The notes under the pieces are model-generated. The model ran no database searches. It saw nothing but the letters and a program-made list of their open reading frames with translations, and had not been told where the DNA came from. DNA of 64,000 bases from positions 64,001 to 128,000 of the forward strand of contig OZ245742.1 in assembly GCA_965227295.1 (NCBI GenBank), written 5' to 3'. The stretch's first letter is position 1; every line of letters begins with the position of its first letter. The stretch is from Leptonemataceae bacterium (GTDB lineage: Bacteria > Spirochaetota > Leptospiria > Leptospirales > Leptonemataceae). A program made the position numbers and the translations under genes. Positions 1,672 through 60,679 of this stretch are shown here, piece after piece.

Positions 1672-1810
1672 TTGGCCACAGAGGCGCAGAGGACACAGAG
1701 TTTGCGAAAGGTTGGGGCATCAGACTATTCAAGTCACCAGGCTACGAACGCGTTCTTGCGCCGCTTCCCCATCAACCTCTTCTCTGTGTTCTCTGTGCCT
1801 CTGTGGCAAA
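1672..1810. repeat. Intergenic element with ~28-bp imperfect terminal inverted repeats (REP/MITE-like)
   Basis: tggccacagaggcgcagaggacacagag (1673-1700) versus the reverse complement of ctctgtgttctctgtgcctctgtggcaa (1782-1809). Confidence 0.75.
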
Positions 1811-1822
1811 GGGAACTTCAGC

Positions 1823-2236
1823 TCAGTCACAGGCGACGACCAGGTCGCCGGCGACTTTGGTTTCGCCGTTGACCTGAGCTTCGAGAGAAACGGTCATCTC
1901 TTTCGCGTCGTCGTTTTTCTTTTTCACCTTGCCCTTGCAGACGATAACGTCGCCGGGGAACGTCATCCCCTTGAACTTTACGCCGAAGGATTTCATTTGT
2001 CCGGGATGCACCCAGTTTGTCGCCAGGCGACCGAGTTGGGCCATGACGTACATACCGTGGGCGATGGTGCTGTCGAGACCGGCCTCTTTCACGGCGAACT
2101 CGGGGTCCGTGTGAATCGGGTTGAAGTCCCCGGAAGCGCCGGCGTAGCGCACCAGGTCCATGTGTTTGAGCGGTCCGACCTGAAGTTCAGGGATCTCCGC
2201 GCCTTTTTCGTATTCGTCGTATTTAATGCGATTCAT
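1823..2236 (-). CDS. MaoC-family (hot-dog) dehydratase, catalytic HadB-like subunit
   Basis: YAGASGDFNPIHTD...IAHGM hydratase-2 motif. Confidence 0.9.
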   Translation of the reverse strand: MNRIKYDEYEKGAEIPELQVGPLKHMDLVRYAGASGDFNPIHTDPEFAVKEAGLDSTIAHGMYVMAQLGRLATNWVHPGQMKSFGVKFKGMTFPGDVIVCKGKVKKKNDDAKEMTVSLEAQVNGETKVAGDLVVACD

Positions 2237-2260
2237 AAGATTCCTCCAGAAAATGTGGCT

Positions 2261-2704
2261 TCAGTCCGGTCGGATGACGATGGCCATTTCGGCTTCGATG
2301 CATACGTCGCCCTTTTCATCTTTGAACTCGGTCTTAAACGTGACCATGTTCATTTTACCGATTTTTACATCGATGACCTCGCCCGCGGCGTGAATCGTTA
2401 CCCCGGGGTAGACCGGCTTATGATAGTTGTACTCTTCTTTCATGTGCAACAGGCGCGTGGTATCGATACCCATGTTGCTCATGTCGTCCCAGATCTTCGG
2501 ATAACCCCAGAACTGGAAGGCCGTCTGAAACGTCGGCGGGATGGGGGTATCGTCGAAGCCGGCTGCTTTCGCGGCGGCGGGATCAGTGTAGATCGGATTC
2601 GTTTCGCCGATGGCTTTCAGAAATTCCTGTACTTTGCCGCGTTCCACCGCGAACGTGTACGGATCGAGTTTGGTTCCAACAATGTCTTTACTGAGTTCAG
2701 GCAT
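2261..2704 (-). CDS. MaoC-family dehydratase N-terminal-like (HadA/FAS1_N-like) subunit
   Basis: [22 protein letters not shown]...IPPTF...[14 protein letters not shown]; adjacent and co-oriented with the MaoC gene. Confidence 0.85.
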
Positions 2705-2774
2705 AGCGGAGGCAAATTAACGAGGCGGAAATTCCCGGTCAAGCAATTCAGACCGAGCGGTCAGAATCGTCTGC

Positions 2775-4559
2775 TCATAGCGCCAGCACGAACCCCAGCA
2801 TGTACCGCGCATAAAACCGGGTCGCCGGCTTCCGCAGCTCGCCCGTGAGCGCGTCCGGTTCGTTCTCGGACGGCCGAAACCAGGCCGCCGTGGCGCTCGC
2901 CTGCACGGCCAGGTCCACATCCACGAACGACAGCGGATAACGCAGCGCCGCGATGCCCTCGAAGCCGTCGCCGGTTAGAAAGTCCGCGTAGTTCGCAAAG
3001 ACGTCCACGGTGAGCGCGCGCCAGGGAACGGCGCTGAAACGCAGCGAGGCCATGGTCAGCCCCTGATTGTCGTAGACCGGCCGCGCCGGATCGCTGTTGT
3101 CCCGGGCCTCGTCGAAATCCGGCAATCGTTCCGCGGCCACGCCCGAGTCGGCGAAGATCTCGCCGGGCTGGTAGTTCCGGAGCGGCGGGCGCTCGTTGCC
3201 CGGCGCCGGACCGGTGAGCAAAATCGAAGCGGCCCCGCCCATCACGCCGGGCAGAGGTCGCAGTGCGCCGAAACCGCGAAGTTCGTTGTCGCTGTCGTCG
3301 CGGTCCCGGGTGGCATAGAGCCCGGCCAGGGCCAGCTCCGGTCCGCGGCGCACCGGCAGATCACGCACGCAATCCACCCGCGCCGGCTGGCTCGCAATGC
3401 AGCCCGGGCTGCTCTGTTCCCATCCCAGGTGATAGACCACCTCGCCGAAGGCCAGGGCCCCGCCGATCTCCCGGCGTGAGGAAGCGATCCGCGTGCCGGC
3501 GGTATCCACGGCGATTTCGCGCCCTCTATTATAGAAAAAACTCCCGCGCAAAGAGAACGGCGCGGCCTGGCCGAAGTCCTTTGCGAAGCGCAGTCCGTAG
3601 TAGTGCACGTCCAGGTCCGGCAGCGCCGCCTGCCCTGTAGGAACTGTTACCCGCGTCGGCGGAATGCCGGGAAGCTGGAGGTCGGGAACCGCCGCCCGGC
3701 CCGGGGAACGGTAGAAGCCGTAGAGCGCGCTGACGGAGTAAGATGAGCCGGTGAGTCCGATGCTTCCCGTATAAAATGCCGCCGGACTTCCCTCCGGCCG
3801 GCCGATGGCCCGCACTTCGCGCTCCATCTTCCAGCCGGCCAGCACCAGGCGCAGGGCAGTCGCCCCGTTCCCGGTCCACTGAAGCAGTCCACCAGGAGCC
3901 TCGCCCGCGAACAGCAGGCCCTCGGACTCCGTGCGCTGAAAGATGCGCCCACCGGCGACGAACAGGCCGCGGCGCAGTTGCTCCTCACGCTCGATGCTGC
4001 CGACCAACAGGGCTGCCCGATCCGCCCCGGGATGAAACCGCCCGGCCTCGTCCCCGGCGCCGGGATCCGCCGACTCGCCCGGGTTCCAGCGAAAGTACGC
4101 AAAGGTTTCGCCAGGCCGGCCCGGACCCGTCCAACGATCGCTTTCGCCATCGGGGCCGCCGTCGCCGTAATAATGGTAGTCATTCAGGGCGCGCATGGAG
4201 GCCCGCAGGCCAAGAACCAGGCCGGGCCGGTAGACGGCCAGATCCAGGCCGCGCTGCGATCGCTGGCGCGCCCGGTTCTGCTCCCGAAATTCCTCACGGT
4301 TCCCGCCCGCCTCCGAGCCCACGGCGTAGGCATCGCGATAGACCGGGTGCAGATACAGCCACTCGCCGAGTTCCGGATCGATCTCGCTCGCCAGGTTCAG
4401 CATGCCGGCCTGTTCCCAGCGGTCCCGGAACGGGCTGCTGGAAGATGCCCCGGCCTCCGGCTCCTGGGCTCCGACGGCGATGCTCACGCCCACAACGATC
4501 GTCGCAATGCATCCCCACCGAAAGAACACGGCACCACAAATCCGGAGCACGATGAGCAC
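2775..4559 (-). CDS. Exported hypothetical protein, probable outer-membrane beta-barrel
   Basis: Signal-like N-terminus, alternating aromatic/hydrophobic strands, C-terminal ARYMLGFVLAL. Confidence 0.55.
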   Translation of the reverse strand: MLIVLRICGAVFFRWGCIATIVVGVSIAVGAQEPEAGASSSSPFRDRWEQAGMLNLASEIDPELGEWLYLHPVYRDAYAVGSEAGGNREEFREQNRARQRSQRGLDLAVYRPGLVLGLRASMRALNDYHYYGDGGPDGESDRWTGPGRPGETFAYFRWNPGESADPGAGDEAGRFHPGADRAALLVGSIEREEQLRRGLFVAGGRIFQRTESEGLLFAGEAPGGLLQWTGNGATALRLVLAGWKMEREVRAIGRPEGSPAAFYTGSIGLTGSSYSVSALYGFYRSPGRAAVPDLQLPGIPPTRVTVPTGQAALPDLDVHYYGLRFAKDFGQAAPFSLRGSFFYNRGREIAVDTAGTRIASSRREIGGALAFGEVVYHLGWEQSSPGCIASQPARVDCVRDLPVRRGPELALAGLYATRDRDDSDNELRGFGALRPLPGVMGGAASILLTGPAPGNERPPLRNYQPGEIFADSGVAAERLPDFDEARDNSDPARPVYDNQGLTMASLRFSAVPWRALTVDVFANYADFLTGDGFEGIAALRYPLSFVDVDLAVQASATAAWFRPSENEPDALTGELRKPATRFYARYMLGFVLAL

Positions 4560-4703
4560 GCCAGCCTTTCCGCTCAGGATGCCTGACCCGCCGCAGGTTC
4601 AGTACAACCTTGCATGAAGTGCTTGACCGTATAGTGCGCCGCAAAAATATGACCCCATCATTAGTGCGGCGCACACATCACGAGCGCCGCCGAAGAGGAC
4701 GAC

Positions 4704-5384
4704 ATGCTCACAAAGCTGCAATCCATCGCCCGCAAAACGCTCATCGCCCTGGTCATCCTGGGCCCGGCAGTACTCGGCCTGAACGGCTCCGACCTGACCC
4801 CCGGCCGCCTGGCCGCCAACGATCAGTATCTGGCGGCCCGGAAAGAGGCCCGGCTGCGCATCGGTGCCTACGTCGCCTTCAAGAATCCGCACAAGAGCAA
4901 GGCCGAGCGTATGCAACTCGTCGAGGTCATCCTGGATCAGTCCGAACGCCTGCGCATTCCGGAGCACTTCTACATCGACGGACTGTCCGTGCATCCGGCG
5001 TACTTTCTCACGGCGCTGATCGGCGTGGAGTCCACGTTTTACCGGGACGCCGTTTCTCACGCCGACGCCCGGGGTTACATGCAGCTCATGCCGGCCACGG
5101 TCGCCTGGATGGATGTGAATCTTCTGAGCGAAGGGAACGTGACCGAACTGGATCGGCTCTTTGAGGCGCGGACGAACGTGGCGCGGGGCGTGAGCTATCT
5201 GAACTTTCTCATCAAAGAAATGGACGACATCCGCCTGGTTTGCCTTGCCTACAACGCCGGTCCCGGTAACGTGCGCCGGGGATACTGGGTCGAAGAGTAC
5301 TGGACGCGCGTCCATGCCAACTACCGGGAAATCCGCCGGGGCGAGTTTCTCTTCCGCGAGGTTCGCGGCACCGTGACCCTCTAA
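4704..5384 (+). CDS. Lytic transglycosylase (SLT domain)
   Basis: ALIGVESTF, ARGYMQLMP, AYNAGPGNV motifs; RBS gagga upstream. Confidence 0.9.
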   Translation: MLTKLQSIARKTLIALVILGPAVLGLNGSDLTPGRLAANDQYLAARKEARLRIGAYVAFKNPHKSKAERMQLVEVILDQSERLRIPEHFYIDGLSVHPAYFLTALIGVESTFYRDAVSHADARGYMQLMPATVAWMDVNLLSEGNVTELDRLFEARTNVARGVSYLNFLIKEMDDIRLVCLAYNAGPGNVRRGYWVEEYWTRVHANYREIRRGEFLFREVRGTVTL

Positions 5385-5394
5385 CCATAGCACG

Positions 5395-7068
5395 ATGACC
5401 GACAGCCGCCGCGACGATGGTCCGCGCTCTCTGCGACGGAGACTTCCGACGTTGACCGGCGCGAGTTTCCGGTGTGCCGTCTTCGTGGTCCTCTGCGTTG
5501 CGCTGACGCCCTGCTCCCTCCTGACCTCCGGCGACAGGGACCCGGAAGATCTTTCCTGGCTCATGTGGACCGGTTACCACGCCGTCGTCGTCGCCTCCGC
5601 TTCCGAACTTCAGAACATGCGCCGGGACTTCGGTGTCGTCCCGGAAGAGATGGTCTTCGTCGACGTGGATCAGGATACCGGCGACGGCATCTATCGCCTG
5701 CCCGGTCGCTTTCGGGAAGACCTCCGCCTGGGCGAGTACCGGATCATGGAGTCCCCGCCGTTTCGCTTTATCGATCCGGACATCGTCCGCCGGCGAGAGT
5801 CGGACGATCCCGCGGTCTGGGCGTCCGGTTACAAGGACGAAGTCATCGCCGAAAAGATGTTACGGCGATTGGCCCGGGACTTTCCCGATTACACGAAGCT
5901 GTATGAGATCGGCAAAAGCCGCGAAGGGCGGACGATCTACGCGCTGAAGATCTCCGACAACCCCGGCATCGACGAGGACGAGCCGGCGCTCCTGTTCAAC
6001 GGGGCGCACCACGGCGGCGAGTTCCTGGCCGTGGACTACGTCTTAGATCTTGCTCAGTTCATCTTAAGCGGACGCGGGCAACACGCCGGAGACGGCTCCT
6101 GGCTCGACACGTTTTACGAAAAACAAAACGGAGTCGGCGTTACGCACTGGCGCCGGGCCCGGCAGCAGGAATGGATCAATCGCTTCGAGTTATGGTTCGT
6201 ACCCGTGGTGAATCCCGACGGCCTGCACATCGCCTGGAACCGCGCGTACTGGTCCGGGCGCAAGAACGCCCGGGACACGACGGCACCGCGCCGCAAGTGG
6301 AATCGCAAAGACGGCGTGGATCTCAATCGCAATTATCCGTTCTTCTGGAAGTCCGATCTCGAAGGGGCGAGCAGCGGCAAACCGTACAGCATCTTTTATC
6401 GCGGGCCGAAGCCCGGCAGCGAACCCGAGGTGCGGGCGATCATGGGCCTCGCCCAACGACAGCGTTTCGTTGCGGCGTTGTCGTACCACTGCTTCGCGAC
6501 AAAGGTCCTGGTTCCCTACACCATCGACGGGGCCGTGTCGCCGATTCCGAATCCGGCCTGGCGATTGGGTGAATCCCTGGCGGCGGCCGGGAAAAGTCAT
6601 CGCCCGGTGAAACGCTACACCGCCGAACGAAACCTGTATGCCGTCGACGGAACGGACCAGGACTGGTTGTTCCACACGTTCGGTACGATGGCGTTCATTG
6701 TAGAAGGGAGTTATCTTACACCGGACTTTGAACCAAAGGCCCGGCTTTCGATTCAGGGGATGCGCCCGTTGTCGGTGCGTATGCTGGAACTTTATGAGGA
6801 AGGCCCGATCATCGTCATCCACACGCGCGACGCCAGCGGCGGACCCATCCCGGCGCGGGTGGAAGTCCTGGAGACGGCCTACTACGAGGGCGAAATCTTC
6901 ACCAGCCATCCCACGAGCGGACGCTACGACTACTGGCTCGCCGGCGTAAACGATGGTCCGTTCACGGTGCGCGCGTCGAAAAATGGCTACTATCCGGCGG
7001 AGGCGCGGATTCGCTGCGGCTCCGGCCTGTGTCCGATCGTCCTCGAACTGGAGCCGGTTTCACATTGA
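5395..7068 (+). CDS. M14 zinc carboxypeptidase (carboxypeptidase T-like)
   Basis: IGKSREGRTIYALKISD, GAHHGGE (HxxE), PVVNPDG, RKN, GVDLNRNY, SEPE, LSYH. Confidence 0.9.
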   Translation: MTDSRRDDGPRSLRRRLPTLTGASFRCAVFVVLCVALTPCSLLTSGDRDPEDLSWLMWTGYHAVVVASASELQNMRRDFGVVPEEMVFVDVDQDTGDGIYRLPGRFREDLRLGEYRIMESPPFRFIDPDIVRRRESDDPAVWASGYKDEVIAEKMLRRLARDFPDYTKLYEIGKSREGRTIYALKISDNPGIDEDEPALLFNGAHHGGEFLAVDYVLDLAQFILSGRGQHAGDGSWLDTFYEKQNGVGVTHWRRARQQEWINRFELWFVPVVNPDGLHIAWNRAYWSGRKNARDTTAPRRKWNRKDGVDLNRNYPFFWKSDLEGASSGKPYSIFYRGPKPGSEPEVRAIMGLAQRQRFVAALSYHCFATKVLVPYTIDGAVSPIPNPAWRLGESLAAAGKSHRPVKRYTAERNLYAVDGTDQDWLFHTFGTMAFIVEGSYLTPDFEPKARLSIQGMRPLSVRMLELYEEGPIIVIHTRDASGGPIPARVEVLETAYYEGEIFTSHPTSGRYDYWLAGVNDGPFTVRASKNGYYPAEARIRCGSGLCPIVLELEPVSH

Positions 7069-30540: not shown

Positions 30541-31116
30541 ATGCCGGCTAAAATCTTACAGATTACGGTTAGCATCGTGCTCCTCACGCTCTGCCACTGC
30601 GGCTCCCGCACGGTCCTTGAGCACAACGACCCCGGTCTGCAAATTCGGAACGACGTCTACCATCACGACGGCACGCCGTTCACCGGAATCATTCGCAGCA
30701 TCGTGCCGGCCGTGGAGATGGTTCGCCTGGTTCCCTATCGCGACGGCCTTGTGCACGGCACGGTGAAGGCGTATCATTCCTCCGGGACGCTCATTGAAAA
30801 GGGCCGCTACGAAGACGGCAAACCCACGGGTGTCCATCGCAGTTGGTACAACGACGGCCAGAATCGCAGCTACGCCGTTTACGAAGACGGTCTGCTGGAA
30901 GGCGAGCGGTGGGTCTGGCACAAGAACGGCCGCGTGTTTCAGTTCCAAACATACGAAGCGGGCAAGATGCGCGCGCACAAGCAGTGGCGCGAAAACGGCC
31001 TCATCTACATGAACTACGTCTACTATACCGACGGCGCGATTGCCGGCCTGCCGGGAAGTAAGGTGTGTGAGCCGGTGAGCAAAGTGACAGAAGCAGAGAC
31101 GGAAAAGGACCTATAA
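30541..31116 (+). CDS. MORN-variant repeat (YwqK-like) lipoprotein
   Basis: LCHC lipobox-like; PFTG, repeated Y.DG..HG...W/Y..G units; PGSKVC tail. Confidence 0.85.
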   Translation: MPAKILQITVSIVLLTLCHCGSRTVLEHNDPGLQIRNDVYHHDGTPFTGIIRSIVPAVEMVRLVPYRDGLVHGTVKAYHSSGTLIEKGRYEDGKPTGVHRSWYNDGQNRSYAVYEDGLLEGERWVWHKNGRVFQFQTYEAGKMRAHKQWRENGLIYMNYVYYTDGAIAGLPGSKVCEPVSKVTEAETEKDL

Positions 31117-31127
31117 TAAATTCTTTT

Positions 31128-31238
31128 GGGGCGTGCCCCTCCGCGCTTCGCGCTCCGGGTCGGGCTGTTCCGCACTCCGCTTCGCTTCGGTCTCGCGAAG
31201 ACGCGAGACTGGCGGCTACGCCGCCATGCTCCGCATCC
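31128..31238 (+). repeat. REP-like multi-hairpin repeat, copy A (left part; interrupted by IS110, right part at 32728-32745)
   Basis: ggggcgtgcccctccgcgcttcgcgctccgggtcgggct...ctccgcttcgcttcggt...gcatcc; shares blocks with 60203-60324 (-) and 60404-60529 (+). Confidence 0.8.
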
Positions 31239-31261
31239 TATATGTCCCCGTGAGGCTGTCG

Positions 31262-31495
31262 GGACGGGGTTTTCCTGGCCATCGAACCGGCGGTGCCGTA
31301 GATGAGTATCGAAGGCTATAGACTCCGGGGAGAACCCACTCGTATCTGTGTGAACCTTAGCCGGGGAAACACTTGTGAGGGCTCTATGTTCCCCCGGAGC
31401 CTATCTCCAATCGATACCACTTATAGTGAGTTTGCCCTGCCTTGCAAGGGTTTCCTGAATATAGGAATCGTGGATGATTTGGAGTGATAGCCTCA
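31262..31495 (+). ncRNA. IS110 bridge RNA (5' hairpin, target-binding loop 31323-31399, donor-binding loop 31401-31490); RNA ends approximate
   Basis: Two stem-bounded internal loops carry segments matching the target (TCGTATCT, GTGAGGG) and the donor junction (ATAGTGAG, ATATAGG). Confidence 0.85.
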
Positions 31496-31506
31496 CCGGA
31501 GGTAGT

Positions 31507-32685
31507 ATGAATCAGACAGTAGCAGGCATCGATTGGAGCGCGCACTTCTTTGACGTGTGCGTATACAGCACGACGGACGGCGTTCTTTACGAAGGCCGAT
31601 TTAACATCGACGGCCCCGGTATCAATCGATTGCTCGGCGTTCTCAAGCGGCACGGACCTATCGAAGCCATCGGGATCGAGGACGGGCGGCAGCTCGTGGC
31701 GAATCGAATGATGCAGCACGGCTATGACGTGCGCACCGTGCATCCGTTTTCCCTGGCGCGCTTCAAAGAAGTCTACGAAACCACCCGCCGCAAAGATGAT
31801 CGCATGGACGCGATGTACATCGCCCGCATGCTCGCCGAGAAACCGCAGGCGTTTCGAAGTATTACGCAGAACAGCCCGGAATGCACGCGGCTGGAAGCGC
31901 TGAACCGTCAGAAGCGCCGCCTGGTCGAGGACCGCAGCCGTTTGCAGAATCGCCTGCGTGCCGTGCTGCGCGGCTATTTTCCCGCGTTTTCCGGCTGTTT
32001 TCAGCGCAACCTGTCGCGGTCGGCCCTGCAATTGCTACAACGCATCGAACGGCCCTCGGTCATCGCCGGACTGAGCCGTGAGGCTTTCCTCGAATACGCA
32101 GAGGGATGCCGATTCAACGGCGCCCGCAAACTTGCGATCTATGAACGTTTAGTAGAGCATACGATTGTCGAAGAGCCCGGCGATATAGAGGAACGCGTGC
32201 TGGAGATGCAGCACCTGGTGCAGATGATGATACTCCACGACATGCAGCTCCAGCAATTACAGGAGTCCATTGATGCCCTCTACGACTCCCATCCCATGGC
32301 CGGCGTGTTTGATTCGATTCCGGGCGTGGCCGGAGACCTGCGCGTTCGCCTGCTGACGGCATTCGGCGACAATCTCAATCGTTTCCGGGACCATCGTGCT
32401 GTGCAGGCGTTCGCCGGAACCGCGCCGATCACGATTCGTAGCGGCAAGCGCGAAGTCGTAACCATGCGCACCGGCTGCAACAAGGCGTTCCGGGATACGC
32501 TCTACCAGCTCGCGTTCACGACGATGGGTCGCCTGCCGTGGGCGCGGGCCCATTACAATCGCCAGAAGGCCGCCGGCAAATCGCACTCAGCAGCACTGCG
32601 CTCCCTCTCGAACAAATGGGTCCCGATCCTGTTTTCCATGTGGCGCGCGAGCGAAATCTACAGCGAAGACCGGCGGGCCGCATGA
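31507..32685 (+). CDS. IS110-family DEDD recombinase/transposase (392 aa)
   Basis: RBS ggaggt; AGIDWS (D), IGIEDG (E), KDDRMDA (DD); C-terminal SIPGV...RF...AFAGTAP..RSGK (catalytic Ser)...GCNKAFR. Confidence 0.95.
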   Translation: MNQTVAGIDWSAHFFDVCVYSTTDGVLYEGRFNIDGPGINRLLGVLKRHGPIEAIGIEDGRQLVANRMMQHGYDVRTVHPFSLARFKEVYETTRRKDDRMDAMYIARMLAEKPQAFRSITQNSPECTRLEALNRQKRRLVEDRSRLQNRLRAVLRGYFPAFSGCFQRNLSRSALQLLQRIERPSVIAGLSREAFLEYAEGCRFNGARKLAIYERLVEHTIVEEPGDIEERVLEMQHLVQMMILHDMQLQQLQESIDALYDSHPMAGVFDSIPGVAGDLRVRLLTAFGDNLNRFRDHRAVQAFAGTAPITIRSGKREVVTMRTGCNKAFRDTLYQLAFTTMGRLPWARAHYNRQKAAGKSHSAALRSLSNKWVPILFSMWRASEIYSEDRRAA

Positions 32686-32704
32686 CCACCGCGTCGGAAT
32701 TTTC

Positions 32705-32710
32705 TTGACG
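32705..32710 (+). promoter_or_regulatory. -35 hexamer (TTGACG) at the IS right end; completed by TATATG from the left end on circularisation
   Basis: In the predicted circle: TTGACG - 17 nt (cggcgacatagtgagcc) - TATATG. Confidence 0.65.
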
Positions 32711-32750
32711 CGGCGACATAGTGAGCCCTCACGCGAAGAGTTGTAACATC

Positions 32751-33446
32751 ATGAAAATCATCCAGACTGTATTCCTCTTAATGTTTGCAGTAGGCCTCCC
32801 GGGCTGCGGCGAGGATGCTCCGCCGTTTCGTCCCGAGGTCGCCGGTTTTTCCGAGCCTCGCGCCGGCATGTTGCCTTACTTCCAGGGCCGCGACATGAAT
32901 CCCTACTGGCCGCCGGAAGACGCGGAGACACTGCCGGAAGACCTGCGGCGGCCGGCGAACTTCACGTTGCTCAGTCACAACGATGCAAAGTTTACTCCGG
33001 ATGATCTTAACGAAAAGTACACGATTCTGAACTTCTTTTTTACGCGCTGCCCGGGCATCTGTCCGCTGATCACCCGCAACGTGAAAAAGGTCTCGGCGCA
33101 GATTCCGAACCAGGCCGATCTTCAGTTCGTTTCGATTTCGGTCACGCCGGAATACGATCGCCCGCCGGAGATGCGCCAGTACCGCGAGGAACACCGCGTC
33201 TCCCAGGCAAACTGGCTCATGCTCACCGGCGAACGCGAACCCATCTACGAAATGGCGCGACTACAGTTCGGCGCCGACGTGCGCACCGACGTCGAAGAAT
33301 TCACGAGTCCCGAGGACTTCGTGCATACGGAGAACGTGTATCTACTGGATCGGCAGGGTTATTTGCGCGGGGTGTATCGCGCACGGGGCATGGGCGACCT
33401 GGAGCGATTGGTGCAGGAGCTGGAGGTTTTGCGGGGGAGTGAATGA
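32751..33446 (+). CDS. SCO1/SenC-family copper chaperone lipoprotein
   Basis: LPGC lipobox; FFFTRCPGICP (CxxxCP); SISVTPEYD; FVHTENVYLLD. Confidence 0.92.
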   Translation: MKIIQTVFLLMFAVGLPGCGEDAPPFRPEVAGFSEPRAGMLPYFQGRDMNPYWPPEDAETLPEDLRRPANFTLLSHNDAKFTPDDLNEKYTILNFFFTRCPGICPLITRNVKKVSAQIPNQADLQFVSISVTPEYDRPPEMRQYREEHRVSQANWLMLTGEREPIYEMARLQFGADVRTDVEEFTSPEDFVHTENVYLLDRQGYLRGVYRARGMGDLERLVQELEVLRGSE

Positions 33447-60055: not shown

Positions 60056-60202
60056 ATACCGGCGCAAGTCTATATGATATAATAATACATCATATAAATA
60101 TATCGCAATTCAGGTCATCGTGCTTGCGTCAGAAAGGCGAGGGATGGCCGAAGACCCGGGGAATTGCTCAAGGAAGACCAGGCGGCCGCAAACTATCAAT
60201 TC

Positions 60203-60324
60203 TTGCGTTAGCGATTGGAGGGGGCGCGCGTGAGCGCGCGTCCGGAGCGAAGCGCAGGACCGAAGCCGTAAGGCGGAGCCCCGCAAAGCGCGACCCGGAG
60301 CGCATAGCGCGGAGGGGAACGCCC
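60203..60324 (-). repeat. REP-like multi-hairpin repeat, copy B (unoccupied)
   Basis: Reverse complement gggcgttcccctccgcgctatgcgctccgggtcgcgct...gcttcggtcctgcgc...ccaatcgctaacgcaa matches copies A and C. Confidence 0.8.
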
Positions 60325-60403
60325 ATCCCGACATTATTTTATTTTAAGTTAAAAATCCTGATTTCGGCTAAAAATACAGTAAAATCGGAAGCTCATCATT
60401 TTT

Positions 60404-60529
60404 GGCGCCTCGCCGCTCGCGCGGCGACCGGGCTGCTACAGGCTCCGCTTCGCTTCGGTCCTGCGCGCTTCGCGCTCCGGACTCGCGCTAACGCGCGACC
60501 TTGCGCATCCCTGGCGCAAAGAGTTGTAC
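60404..60529 (+). repeat. REP-like multi-hairpin repeat, copy C (unoccupied)
   Basis: ccgggctgct...ctccgcttcgcttcggtcctgcgcgcttcgcgctccgga...gcatccctggcgcaaagagttgta. Confidence 0.8.
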
Positions 60530-60679
60530 ATCCGGCATGAGTTATTTTTTGACAGGCACCGGACCGTCCGAATTTTTTGGCCGACCCCTCCCTGCACAAT
60601 CCCCGCTATCCCCGGCGCGAGAAGCCGGCCCCTGGCCCTGGCACAGTCCGTGCAACTCTCCTTACAACGGAGAACGATC

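What the first reader, a model, noticed from the sequence alone, without database searches (positions are those of the whole stretch)
31128..32745. IS110 inserted precisely into the 3' end of a dispersed REP-like repeat (CC core, no TSD)
Seen: left junction ...ccgcat[CC]tatatgtc (CC 31237-31238) and right junction catagtgag[CC]ctcacgcgaagagttgta (CC 32726-32727). The empty site gcatccctcacgcgaagagttgta aligns with intact repeat ends at 60505-60528 (gcatccctggcgcaaagagttgta) and copy B (aatcgctaacgcaagaattg). Known: IS621 targets E. coli REP sequences. Inference: a parallel REP-targeting IS110 lineage using a different repeat and core.
Basis: partly seen in the sequence, partly recalled or inferred. 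Interest (0 to 1): 0.8.

Follow-up and report, generated by a model that had tools for sequence, protein, structure and literature searches.

The report
Bridge-RNA IS110 inside a structured repeat
A single jumping gene of the IS110 type sits inside one copy of a short repeated DNA element, at the site its own guide RNA specifies; this behaviour is already known from related elements in other bacteria.

Summary
A 1489-bp IS110-family element (31239-32727, + strand) splits one copy of a dispersed ~120-bp repeat, with CC at both junctions (31237-38 and 32726-27). With the element removed, the flanks align without a break to other repeat copies. The recombinase has both Pfam IS110 domains. The 268-nt left end holds a bridge-RNA-like fold. 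Four guide segments lie in the order and on the strands described for IS621, and they match this target and the element's own ends. That arrangement arose in 1 of 20000 shuffles.

The element is single-copy in its genome. A related element on a metagenome contig (L038) sits at the same repeat position, at a different locus in a related organism. Its target guides have changed to match that copy's variant.

Two qualifications apply. The repeat is not a classical REP: it is a multi-helix element with strong covariation, found across Leptospirales, with no Rfam match and no Y1 (RAYT-type) transposase in the genome. Only 3 other sites in the genome match the 12-nt target exactly.

IS110 targeting of repeats is already known, so this is a new member of a known kind.

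The parts
31124..31238 (+). Left (5') part of the interrupted repeat copy. It covers HMM positions ~14-123 and ends in the core CC (31237-31238).
   Evidence: nhmmer hit 31113-31238, HMM 2-124. BLAST of the rebuilt empty site crosses the junction in 95 other copies.
31239..32727 (+). IS110-family insertion sequence, 1489 bp counting one copy of the CC core. It has no terminal inverted repeats.
   Evidence: Junctions read. Repeat homology stops at 31238 and resumes at 32728. TIR test negative. Homology to the L038 element starts right after ...ATCC.
31239..31506 (+). Non-coding left end (268 nt) that encodes the predicted bridge RNA. TATATG at 31239-31244 is the -10 half of the predicted circle-junction promoter.
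   Evidence: It aligns with the L038 left end.
31323..31399 (+). Predicted target-binding stem-loop. The outer stem is 31323-31330 paired with 31392-31399. The left target guide CGUAUCU is at 31341-31347, the right target guide GUGAGGG at 31375-31381, and the handshake CU at 31382-31383.
   Evidence: Guide matches. Consensus fold with L038, including a U-A to C-G compensatory change in the outer stem.
31417..31473 (+). Predicted donor-binding stem-loop. The left donor guide AUAGUGAGUU is at 31423-31432, the right donor guide AUAUAGG at 31459-31465, and the handshake AA at 31466-31467.
   Evidence: Both donor guides are identical in L038.
31507..32685 (+). Recombinase gene (392 aa). The start is the ATG at 31507, preceded by GGAGG. 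It has a DEDD RuvC-like domain and a Tnp domain with Ser-Gly at residues 312-313.
   Evidence: Pfam PF01548 E 3.2e-27 and PF02371 E 2.6e-14. The start agrees with P0002 and L038. Alignment to IS621 chain 8wt6_A.
32686..32727 (+). Short non-coding right end. TTGACG at 32705-32710 is the -35 half of the predicted circle-junction promoter. The left donor sequence ATAGTGAG and the core CC (32726-32727) lie at its end.
32728..32740 (+). Right (3') remnant of the interrupted repeat, CTCACGCGAAGAG (HMM ~124-135).

Best explanation
This is an intact IS110-subgroup insertion sequence, a bridge-RNA-guided DEDD/serine recombinase element. It recombined as a circle into one copy of a structured dispersed repeat, at the site its bridge RNA specifies.

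Shown:
- The element's exact limits, and the CC present at both junctions.
- The recombinase domains and the conserved Ser-Gly.
- A left-end RNA fold with two internal loops.
- The guide matches in those loops. The 5' sides match the top-strand sequence of the left target (CGCATCC, with two U.G wobbles) and of the left donor (ATAGTGAGCC, with the core read as UU). The 3' sides are the reverse complements of core plus right target (CCCTCAC) and core plus right donor (CCTATAT).
- A second lineage member at the same repeat position, with matching changes in its target guides.

Inferred from the published IS621 mechanism:
- Excision gives a circle whose right-end/left-end junction forms a TTGACG-17-TATATG promoter.
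- That promoter drives the bridge RNA and the recombinase.
- A recombinase tetramer holds the donor junction and the repeat target through the two loops and exchanges strands at the CC core.
- The nucleotides just 3' of each right guide (C in the target loop, A in the donor loop) pair with position 7 of the other DNA. This is the handshake arrangement.

The target is the 3' strand of the two helices that close the repeat. Those positions vary between copies in compensated pairs, so each guide variant addresses only a sub-family of copies.
For: Element and limits:
- Pfam IS110 domains are present.
- Alignment to the IS621 transposase chain 8wt6_A gave E 6.4e-9. Query RSGK aligns with the IS621 S241-G242 loop, and RRKDDRMDA aligns with the D102/D105 segment (residue roles from passages of PMC11208158).
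- Repeat homology stops and resumes exactly at the CC junctions.

Guides:
- The four guides are at left-end positions 103-109, 137-143, 185-194 and 221-227, in the order and on the strands given for IS621 in PMC11208160 (passages).
- In 20000 dinucleotide-preserving shuffles of the left end, a target pair arose 106 times, a donor pair 143 times, and all four in order once.

Fold:
- The consensus fold with L038 puts the guides in internal loops of two stem-loops. Five of the 48 pairs show changes on both sides.

L038:
- Its left flank matches the own-genome repeat HMM at E 1.1e-10 and ends at HMM position 123.
- Its left target guide reads CCAAUCU against the flank CCAATCC, where ours reads CGUAUCU against CGCATCC.
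- Its right target guide GCCAGGG predicts CC|CTGGC. Joined to its flank, that gives TTCCAATCCCTGGCGC, the commonest repeat variant in this genome (20 copies).
- Its flanking gene is 80% identical in DNA to own-genome positions 5891362-5891900, so it is a different locus in a related organism. The own genome holds an unoccupied repeat copy there.

Promoter:
- The only sigma-70-like match of 8 or more of 12 in the rebuilt circle junction spans the junction (9 of 12). There is none in the integrated left junction and none in the integrated element by the tool's scan.

Other runs:
- Contigs of metagenome run X3 cover 31227-32739 at roughly 85-94% identity, reaching 12 nt past each end. An X4 contig covers 31320-31504 with 4 differences and 1 gap.
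Against: - There is only one copy in this genome, although the repeat has about 241 copies and 3 further exact targets. Activity here is not shown.
- No RNA data exist: no listed sequencing run is on record as RNA.
- The -10 hexamer TATATG lacks the T at position 6 that the scanning tool requires. The junction promoter is therefore only a 9 of 12 match.
- The left guides read the second core base, and in the donor loop both core bases, by U.G wobble instead of Watson-Crick pairing.
- The bridge-RNA fold rests on two sequences only. The MFE z-score for the single sequence is weak at -1.82.
- L038 lacks its right junction, so its right target is predicted and not seen.
- The letters of the X3 contigs in the flanks could not be read.
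Confidence: 0.88

Rival explanations
1. The insertion into the repeat is a one-off accident. The element's preferred target is some other sequence, and this copy merely resembled it.
For: The element is single-copy in this genome. Of 43 genomic sites with one mismatch to the 12-nt target, 21 lie outside repeats.
Against: - Repeats cover only about 0.5% of the genome (241 copies of ~125 bp in 5.94 Mb).
- L038 is at the same position of another copy, with a matching guide change.
- All 3 other exact targets lie in repeats.
- The guides match this site with no non-pairing position over 7+7 nt.
Confidence: 0.04
2. The repeat halves are the true ends of a longer element, and the ~240 dispersed copies are internally deleted (MITE-like) derivatives of this IS.
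For: The repeat is mobile or gained and lost. The orthologous locus in two same-genus genomes has neither repeat nor IS.
Against: - The repeat occurs in 28 of 40 other Leptospirales genomes, while the recombinase was not found in any of 60 relatives at E<=1e-20.
- The repeat's helices pair its 5' part with the 12 nt beyond the IS, so it is a unit in its own right.
- The guides and the junction promoter fit the 31239/32727 limits.
- L038 and the window share the IS left end, but their flanks differ as much as any two repeat copies do.
- The repeat ends have no TIR.
Confidence: 0.02
3. The element is what it seems but is a dead end here. It arrived once and is no longer mobile in this host, for example because the integrated copy lacks a promoter or because too few sites match.
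For: - It is single-copy despite 3 exact free targets.
- No promoter-like site was found in the integrated element.
- No copy was found in the 60 relatives searched.
Against: - The frame is open.
- Catalytic residues and both guide loops are intact.
- GC content matches the genome: 58.7% against 59.8%.
- Near-identical or related copies occur in other sequencing runs.
- Low copy number is common for IS110 elements (recalled, not from a call).
Confidence: 0.2

Closest known systems
IS621 of Escherichia coli (IS110 family; bridge recombinase)
   Same: - Domain architecture.
- A long non-coding left end upstream of the gene and a short right end.
- No TIR and a 2-nt core at both junctions.
- Two-loop guide RNA with the 5' sides reading the bottom strand and the 3' sides reading the top strand, plus a handshake position.
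- A promoter formed across the circle junction.
- A natural target inside a dispersed extragenic repeat.

Sources: PMC11208160 and PMC11208158, passages only.
   Different: - Protein similarity is low. Only the Tnp domain aligns significantly, at E 6.4e-9.
- The core is CC instead of CT, read by wobble in the left guides.
- The right target guide is 7 nt here, where IS621 has 4.
- The target is a ~120-nt multi-helix repeat, not a ~35-nt REP hairpin.
- The element is single-copy in its host.
ISPpu9 and ISPpu10 of Pseudomonas putida (IS110 family, inserted in REP or conserved intergenic stem-loops)
   Same: These are IS110 elements whose insertions all map to a repeated, structured intergenic sequence. 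For ISPpu10, a target-encoded stem-loop is reported as a second specificity determinant. Sources: 10.64898/2026.03.19.712850, abstract and outline; PMC12288879, listing and start of abstract.
   Different: The host phylum, the repeat and the guides all differ. Whether the repeat's structure contributes to recognition here is untested. The target lies on the 3' strands of two long-range helices, not beside a simple hairpin.
REP-targeting IS elements surveyed by Tobes and Pareja 2006 (PMC1525189)
   Same: The general phenomenon is the same: particular IS families insert at fixed positions in extragenic repeats. Source: search listing and start of abstract only.
   Different: That survey covers classical REPs of Proteobacteria. 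The repeat here does not meet the REP definition.

Membership tests
IS110 family, IS110 subgroup (bridge recombinase elements) | N-terminal DEDD RuvC-like domain | tested here: met
   PF01548 covers residues 17-170 of the 403-aa frame, E 3.2e-27, 95.6 bits against a 29-bit cut-off. GIDWS, IGIED and KDDRMDA are invariant between P0001 and P0002. Residue-level alignment of this domain to IS621 is weak (i-Evalue 44).
IS110 family, IS110 subgroup (bridge recombinase elements) | C-terminal Tnp domain with the conserved catalytic Ser (followed by Gly) | tested here: met
   PF02371 E 2.6e-14. Query S312-G313 aligns with the IS621 SG loop. The role of S241 comes from PMC11208158 passages.
IS110 family, IS110 subgroup (bridge recombinase elements) | No terminal inverted repeats, and a short core shared by both junctions in place of a longer target duplication | tested here: met
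   CC is at both junctions and the adjoining bases differ. The best end-to-end match was 10 of 20, and 494 of 2000 shuffles did as well.
IS110 family, IS110 subgroup (bridge recombinase elements) | Long non-coding left end upstream of the gene, folding into two stem-loops with internal loops | tested here: met
   The left end is 268 nt and the right end 42 nt. The consensus fold with L038 gave 48 pairs, 5 of them with changes on both sides. Only two sequences support it.
IS110 family, IS110 subgroup (bridge recombinase elements) | Loop segments complementary to target and donor in the LTG/RTG/LDG/RDG pattern, core included | tested here: met
   all four in order arose in 1 of 20000 shuffles. 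The target guides change together with the flank in L038.
IS110 family, IS110 subgroup (bridge recombinase elements) | Promoter reconstituted across the RE-LE junction of the circle | tested here: inconclusive
   TTGACG-17-TATATG matches 9 of 12 and is the only match of 8 or more in the rebuilt junction. The -10 lacks T at position 6.
IS110 family, IS110 subgroup (bridge recombinase elements) | Circular intermediate and RNA-dependent recombination | not testable with these tools
   No RNA run was listed. The runs laid were contigs only, and none showed a circle junction.
REP / BIME elements | Unit of about 20-40 bp forming a single imperfect palindrome | tested here: not met
   The conserved unit is ~112-121 nt, with three long-range helices and three hairpins.
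REP / BIME elements | A cognate Y1 (RAYT) transposase in the genome | tested here: not met
   PF01797 gave 0 matches in the own genome (93.55% complete). The control search hit 6 of 14 reference genomes.
REP / BIME elements | High copy number | tested here: met
   241 hits, 128 on + and 113 on -.
REP / BIME elements | Mostly extragenic location | tested here: inconclusive
   45 of 185 full-length copies overlapped my crude ORF set. That gene set is too rough to settle the point.
MITE | Terminal inverted repeats and a target-site duplication | tested here: not met
   The ends of the intact copy 60395-60533 gave a best match of 9 of 20, and 1012 of 2000 shuffles did as well. TSDs were not examined systematically.

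The most novel reading that the evidence does not exclude
The target is not a REP. It is an undescribed ~120-nt multi-helix element that is conserved across Leptospirales, including Leptospira-like genomes. This IS110 lineage has specialised on the 3' strand that closes the element's two outer helices.

Those positions vary between copies only as compensated pairs, so the repeat falls into discrete target sub-families, and the bridge-RNA target loop diversifies in step with them. The resident guide has 3 further exact sites. The L038-type guide would have 20 in the same genome.

If so, this is a natural case where the internal structure of a repeat partitions and limits the spread of an RNA-guided transposon. 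The target's fold may also act as a second recognition layer.
Probability: 0.35. Interest if true: 0.6.

Novelty: new member of a known kind. Interest (0 to 1): 0.4.

Why it matters
The finding adds a divergent bridge-recombinase and bridge-RNA pair from a phylum where none has been studied. The nearest protein is 71% identical, on a contig that could not be fetched, and all other hits are at most 36% identical. The pair has a CC core read partly by wobble, a 7-nt right target guide, and a natural pair of guide variants (window and L038) that shows retargeting in the wild.

It also points to a structured repeat that is abundant in this genome and widespread in the order, and that no library here recognises. 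For genome annotation, the practical points are that the element is a new IS, that it lies 23 nt upstream of the SCO1-family gene's ATG (32751), and that it splits a repeat copy.

It does not change what is known about how IS110 elements choose their sites.

Tried and rejected
- Other copies in the own genome: none by DNA or by protein.
- Relatives' genomes: 0 of 60 at E<=1e-20. In 400 further genomes of the phylum, 6 had matches at E<=1e-40, all at 30-36% identity. None of the 11 loci around those matches has a repeat-model hit.
- Collection scans with the protein or with alignment A1: genome contigs twice with nothing, viral contigs with nothing, metagenome contigs with one locus, L038. Plasmids by tblastn gave 1349 records, all under 60% identity, and the 8 rows listed were 30-32%.
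- Rfam: only chance-level hits over the element (3 hits, E 4.9-6). No hit at E<=1 over 10 loci holding intact repeat copies.
- Empty site at the same locus in same-genus genomes G001 and G002: the locus is there but has neither IS nor repeat, so it cannot serve as an empty-site control.
- RNA evidence: no RNA holder was listed. Run X5, which has the same species label, laid nothing.
- GAGCCTAT at left-end positions 159-166 equals the donor junction. It lies in the outer stem of the target loop, and I treat it as unexplained or chance.
- Orientation of repeat copies relative to a crude ORF set gave no clear rule.
- One literature search for a described Leptospira repeat of this kind returned nothing relevant among the 12 papers listed of 303. 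That is too thin to claim the repeat is not in print.
Full report
**What is there.**
The stretch 31239-32727 (+) holds one long frame. Its product matches both Pfam families that define IS110 transposases: PF01548 at E 3.2e-27 and PF02371 at E 2.6e-14. The real start is the ATG at 31507, giving 392 aa, preceded by GGAGG. The closest protein (P0002) and the L038 element begin at the same place.

The bases next to the CC differ on each side, so the shared core is exactly two bases. The ends are not inverted repeats: the best match was 10 of 20, reached by 494 of 2000 shuffles.

**The flanks are one interrupted repeat copy.**
A DNA search of the own genome with 31100-32760 returned the locus itself plus 40 matches, all confined to the left flank. 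I joined 31100-31238 to 32728-32790 in a script. BLAST then gave 128 HSPs, of which 95 elsewhere in the genome run across the join.

An iterated nhmmer profile finds 241 copies. Of these, 128 are on + and 113 on -, 169 are full length, and 209 include the 3' end. The 3' block ...CGnATCCCTnnCGCGAAGAG is among the most conserved parts, and the IS lies between profile positions 123 and 124.

**The element carries a bridge RNA that specifies this site.**
Passages of PMC11208160 give the rule for IS621. [quoted passage not shown] The core is included in all four.

The 268-nt left end holds four segments in that order and sense:

| Guide | Sequence | Window position | Matches |
|---|---|---|---|
| Left target | CGUAUCU | 31341-47 | top-strand CGCATCC, with two U.G wobbles |
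| Right target | GUGAGGG | 31375-81 | reverse complement of CC+CTCAC |
| Left donor | AUAGUGAGUU | 31423-32 | top-strand ATAGTGAG+CC, core by wobble |
| Right donor | AUAUAGG | 31459-65 | reverse complement of CC+TATAT |

In 20000 dinucleotide-preserving shuffles of the left end, single wobble-tolerant 7-mers were common (1785 to 5870 shuffles). A correctly ordered target pair arose 106 times, a donor pair 143 times, and all four in order once.

The base after each right guide fits the handshake rule described in PMC11208158 (passages). The C after GUGAGGG pairs with donor position 7 (G) and not with target position 7 (T). The A after AUAUAGG pairs with target position 7 (T) and not with donor position 7 (G).

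The single-sequence fold is not compelling on its own (z -1.82). The consensus fold with L038 places the guides in internal loops of two stem-loops. Five of its 48 pairs changed on both sides, including a U-A to C-G change in the outer stem of the target loop.

**Catalytic residues.**
The IS621 chain 8wt6_A is the best solved relative (E 6.4e-9). The query's R-S-G-K aligns with the IS621 loop that carries S241-G242, and RRKDDRMDA aligns with the D102/D105 segment. Alignment of the N-terminal domain to IS621 is weak, so the DEDD assignment rests mainly on Pfam and on invariance between P0001 and P0002.

**Circle-junction promoter.**
In the rebuilt RE-LE junction, the only sigma-70-like match of 8 or more of 12 is TTGACG (32705-10), a 17-nt spacer, then TATATG (31239-44). 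It spans the junction and scores 9 of 12. The integrated left junction has no such match, and the tool's scan finds no promoter in the integrated element. This fits the published model. The -10 lacks the usual T at position 6, so I rate this feature as inconclusive.

**Other members of the lineage.**
This genome has a single copy and no fragments. I found no relative in 60 related genomes. In 400 further genomes of the phylum there were only distant relatives at 30-36% identity, in 6 genomes. Their surroundings carry no repeat-model hit (0 in 11 loci).

In the large protein collection the closest sequence is 71% identical, on a 1505-bp contig that I could not fetch. The rest are at most 34% identical.

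The one metagenome locus recovered, L038, is decisive:
- It holds the first 73 residues of a 58%-identical recombinase, a left end that aligns with ours, and the left junction ...ccctccaatCC|tatgtcacc.
- Its flank matches the repeat profile built from this genome (E 1.1e-10) and ends at profile position 123.
- Its left target guide reads CCAAUCU against CCAATCC, where ours reads CGUAUCU against CGCATCC.
- Its right target guide reads GCCAGGG, predicting CC|CTGGC. Joined to its flank, that gives TTCCAATCCCTGGCGC, the commonest variant of the repeat in this genome, with 20 copies.
- Both donor guides are unchanged.
- The gene beside it is 80% identical in DNA to own-genome positions 5891362-5891900. 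So this is a different locus in a related organism, and the own genome has an unoccupied repeat copy there (5891996-5892152).

As weaker support, contigs of metagenome run X3 cover 31227-32739 at about 85-94% identity, stopping 12 nt beyond each end. An X4 contig covers the guide region with 4 differences and one gap. I could not read their flank letters.

**How many sites the resident guide can use.**
The 12-mer CGCATCC|CTCAC occurs at 3 other places, all in repeat copies (5855470 +, 2501998 -, 3205610 -). Of 43 one-mismatch sites that keep CC, 22 are in repeats. The small number of exact sites is one plausible reason for the single copy. A recent arrival or low activity are others. GC content does not mark the element as foreign: 58.7% against 59.8% for the genome.

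**What the repeat is.**
It is not a REP in the strict sense. Across copies there is extensive compensated variation:
- A closing helix pairs positions 19-23 with 126-130.
- A second helix pairs 49-54 with 119-124. For example, pair 54-119 reads TA 75, GC 75, AT 23, CG 17, and pair 50-123 reads GC 119, CG 72.
- A third helix pairs 59-61 with 112-114.
- There are two terminal hairpins and an invariant unpaired CUCCGCUUCGCUUCGG.
- 18 of 26 predicted pairs show changes on both sides among 23 copies.

The IS target is the 3' strand of the first two helices. The variable target positions (119, 123, 126, 127) are the ones that covary with the 5' part.

A covariance model of the repeat finds it in 29 of 41 genomes of the order, including the own genome. 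By family that is 13 of 24 in the host's family and 15 of 16 in the neighbouring one. Named relatives of the adjacent SCO1 protein place the host in Leptospirales, with Leptospira species at about 48% identity.

Rfam has no match, and the genome has no Y1 transposase. At this locus, two same-genus genomes have neither repeat nor IS. So the repeat copy itself was gained or lost before the IS arrived. Its function is unknown.

**Rivals.**
- Chance landing in a repeat is made very unlikely by L038 and by the guide match.
- The idea that the repeats are deletion derivatives of this IS is contradicted by the repeat's much wider distribution, by its own internal pairing across the insertion point, and by the guides fitting the inner limits.
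- The copy may be stranded in this host. This remains possible and is compatible with the main reading.

**Comparison with what is known.**
IS621 inserts in E. coli REP elements (PMC11208160). ISPpu9 and ISPpu10 insert in P. putida REP or stem-loop sequences (PMC12288879 listing; preprint abstract). An earlier survey described REPs as IS targets (PMC1525189 listing).

This element works like those and meets the family's testable features. It differs in host phylum, in sequence (a distant branch), in core (CC read with wobble), in right-guide length, and in the kind of repeat. I file it as a new member of a known kind, of moderate interest. The structured repeat is the less expected item. Supplementary files of the papers were closed, so I could not check whether this lineage or this target motif is already in the published catalogues of IS110 orthologues.

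Noticed in passing
window 31124-31238 + 32728-32740; 60190-60340 (-); 60395-60533 (+); 241 places in the own genome: The dispersed repeat is a ~120-nt multi-helix element. Among 23 copies, 18 of 26 predicted pairs show compensatory changes. It has an invariant unpaired CUCCGCUUCGCUUCGG. A covariance model finds it in 29 of 41 Leptospirales genomes, including 15 of 16 of the Leptospira-like family. There is no Rfam match, no Y1 transposase in the genome and no TIR. Its function is unknown.
   Followed up: partly
window 60190-60533: Two repeat copies lie head to head, with their 5' ends facing each other across a ~55-nt AT-rich spacer.
   Followed up: no
window 31397-31404 (left-end positions 159-166): GAGCCTAT in the outer stem of the target loop equals the donor junction GAGCC|TAT. 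It is conserved in L038 apart from the compensated stem base. It could be chance, or an unrecognised donor-like site.
   Followed up: no
window 31113-31123 and the 5' edge of most copies: Most repeat copies are preceded by a T-run (profile positions 11-16). This could be an insertion-site preference of the repeat. On neither strand does the element look like an intrinsic terminator.
   Followed up: no
own genome 2279748-2289701 and 2367720-2381512 (outside the window): There are clusters of near-identical repeat copies at intervals of a few kb, which suggests the repeat lies inside larger duplicated units there.
   Followed up: no
window 32728-32751: The IS and repeat remnant end 23 nt before the ATG of the SCO1/SenC-family gene (32751-33446), in the same orientation. 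The insertion separates that gene from the upstream MORN-repeat gene, which in genome G002 lies about 15 nt upstream of it.
   Followed up: partly
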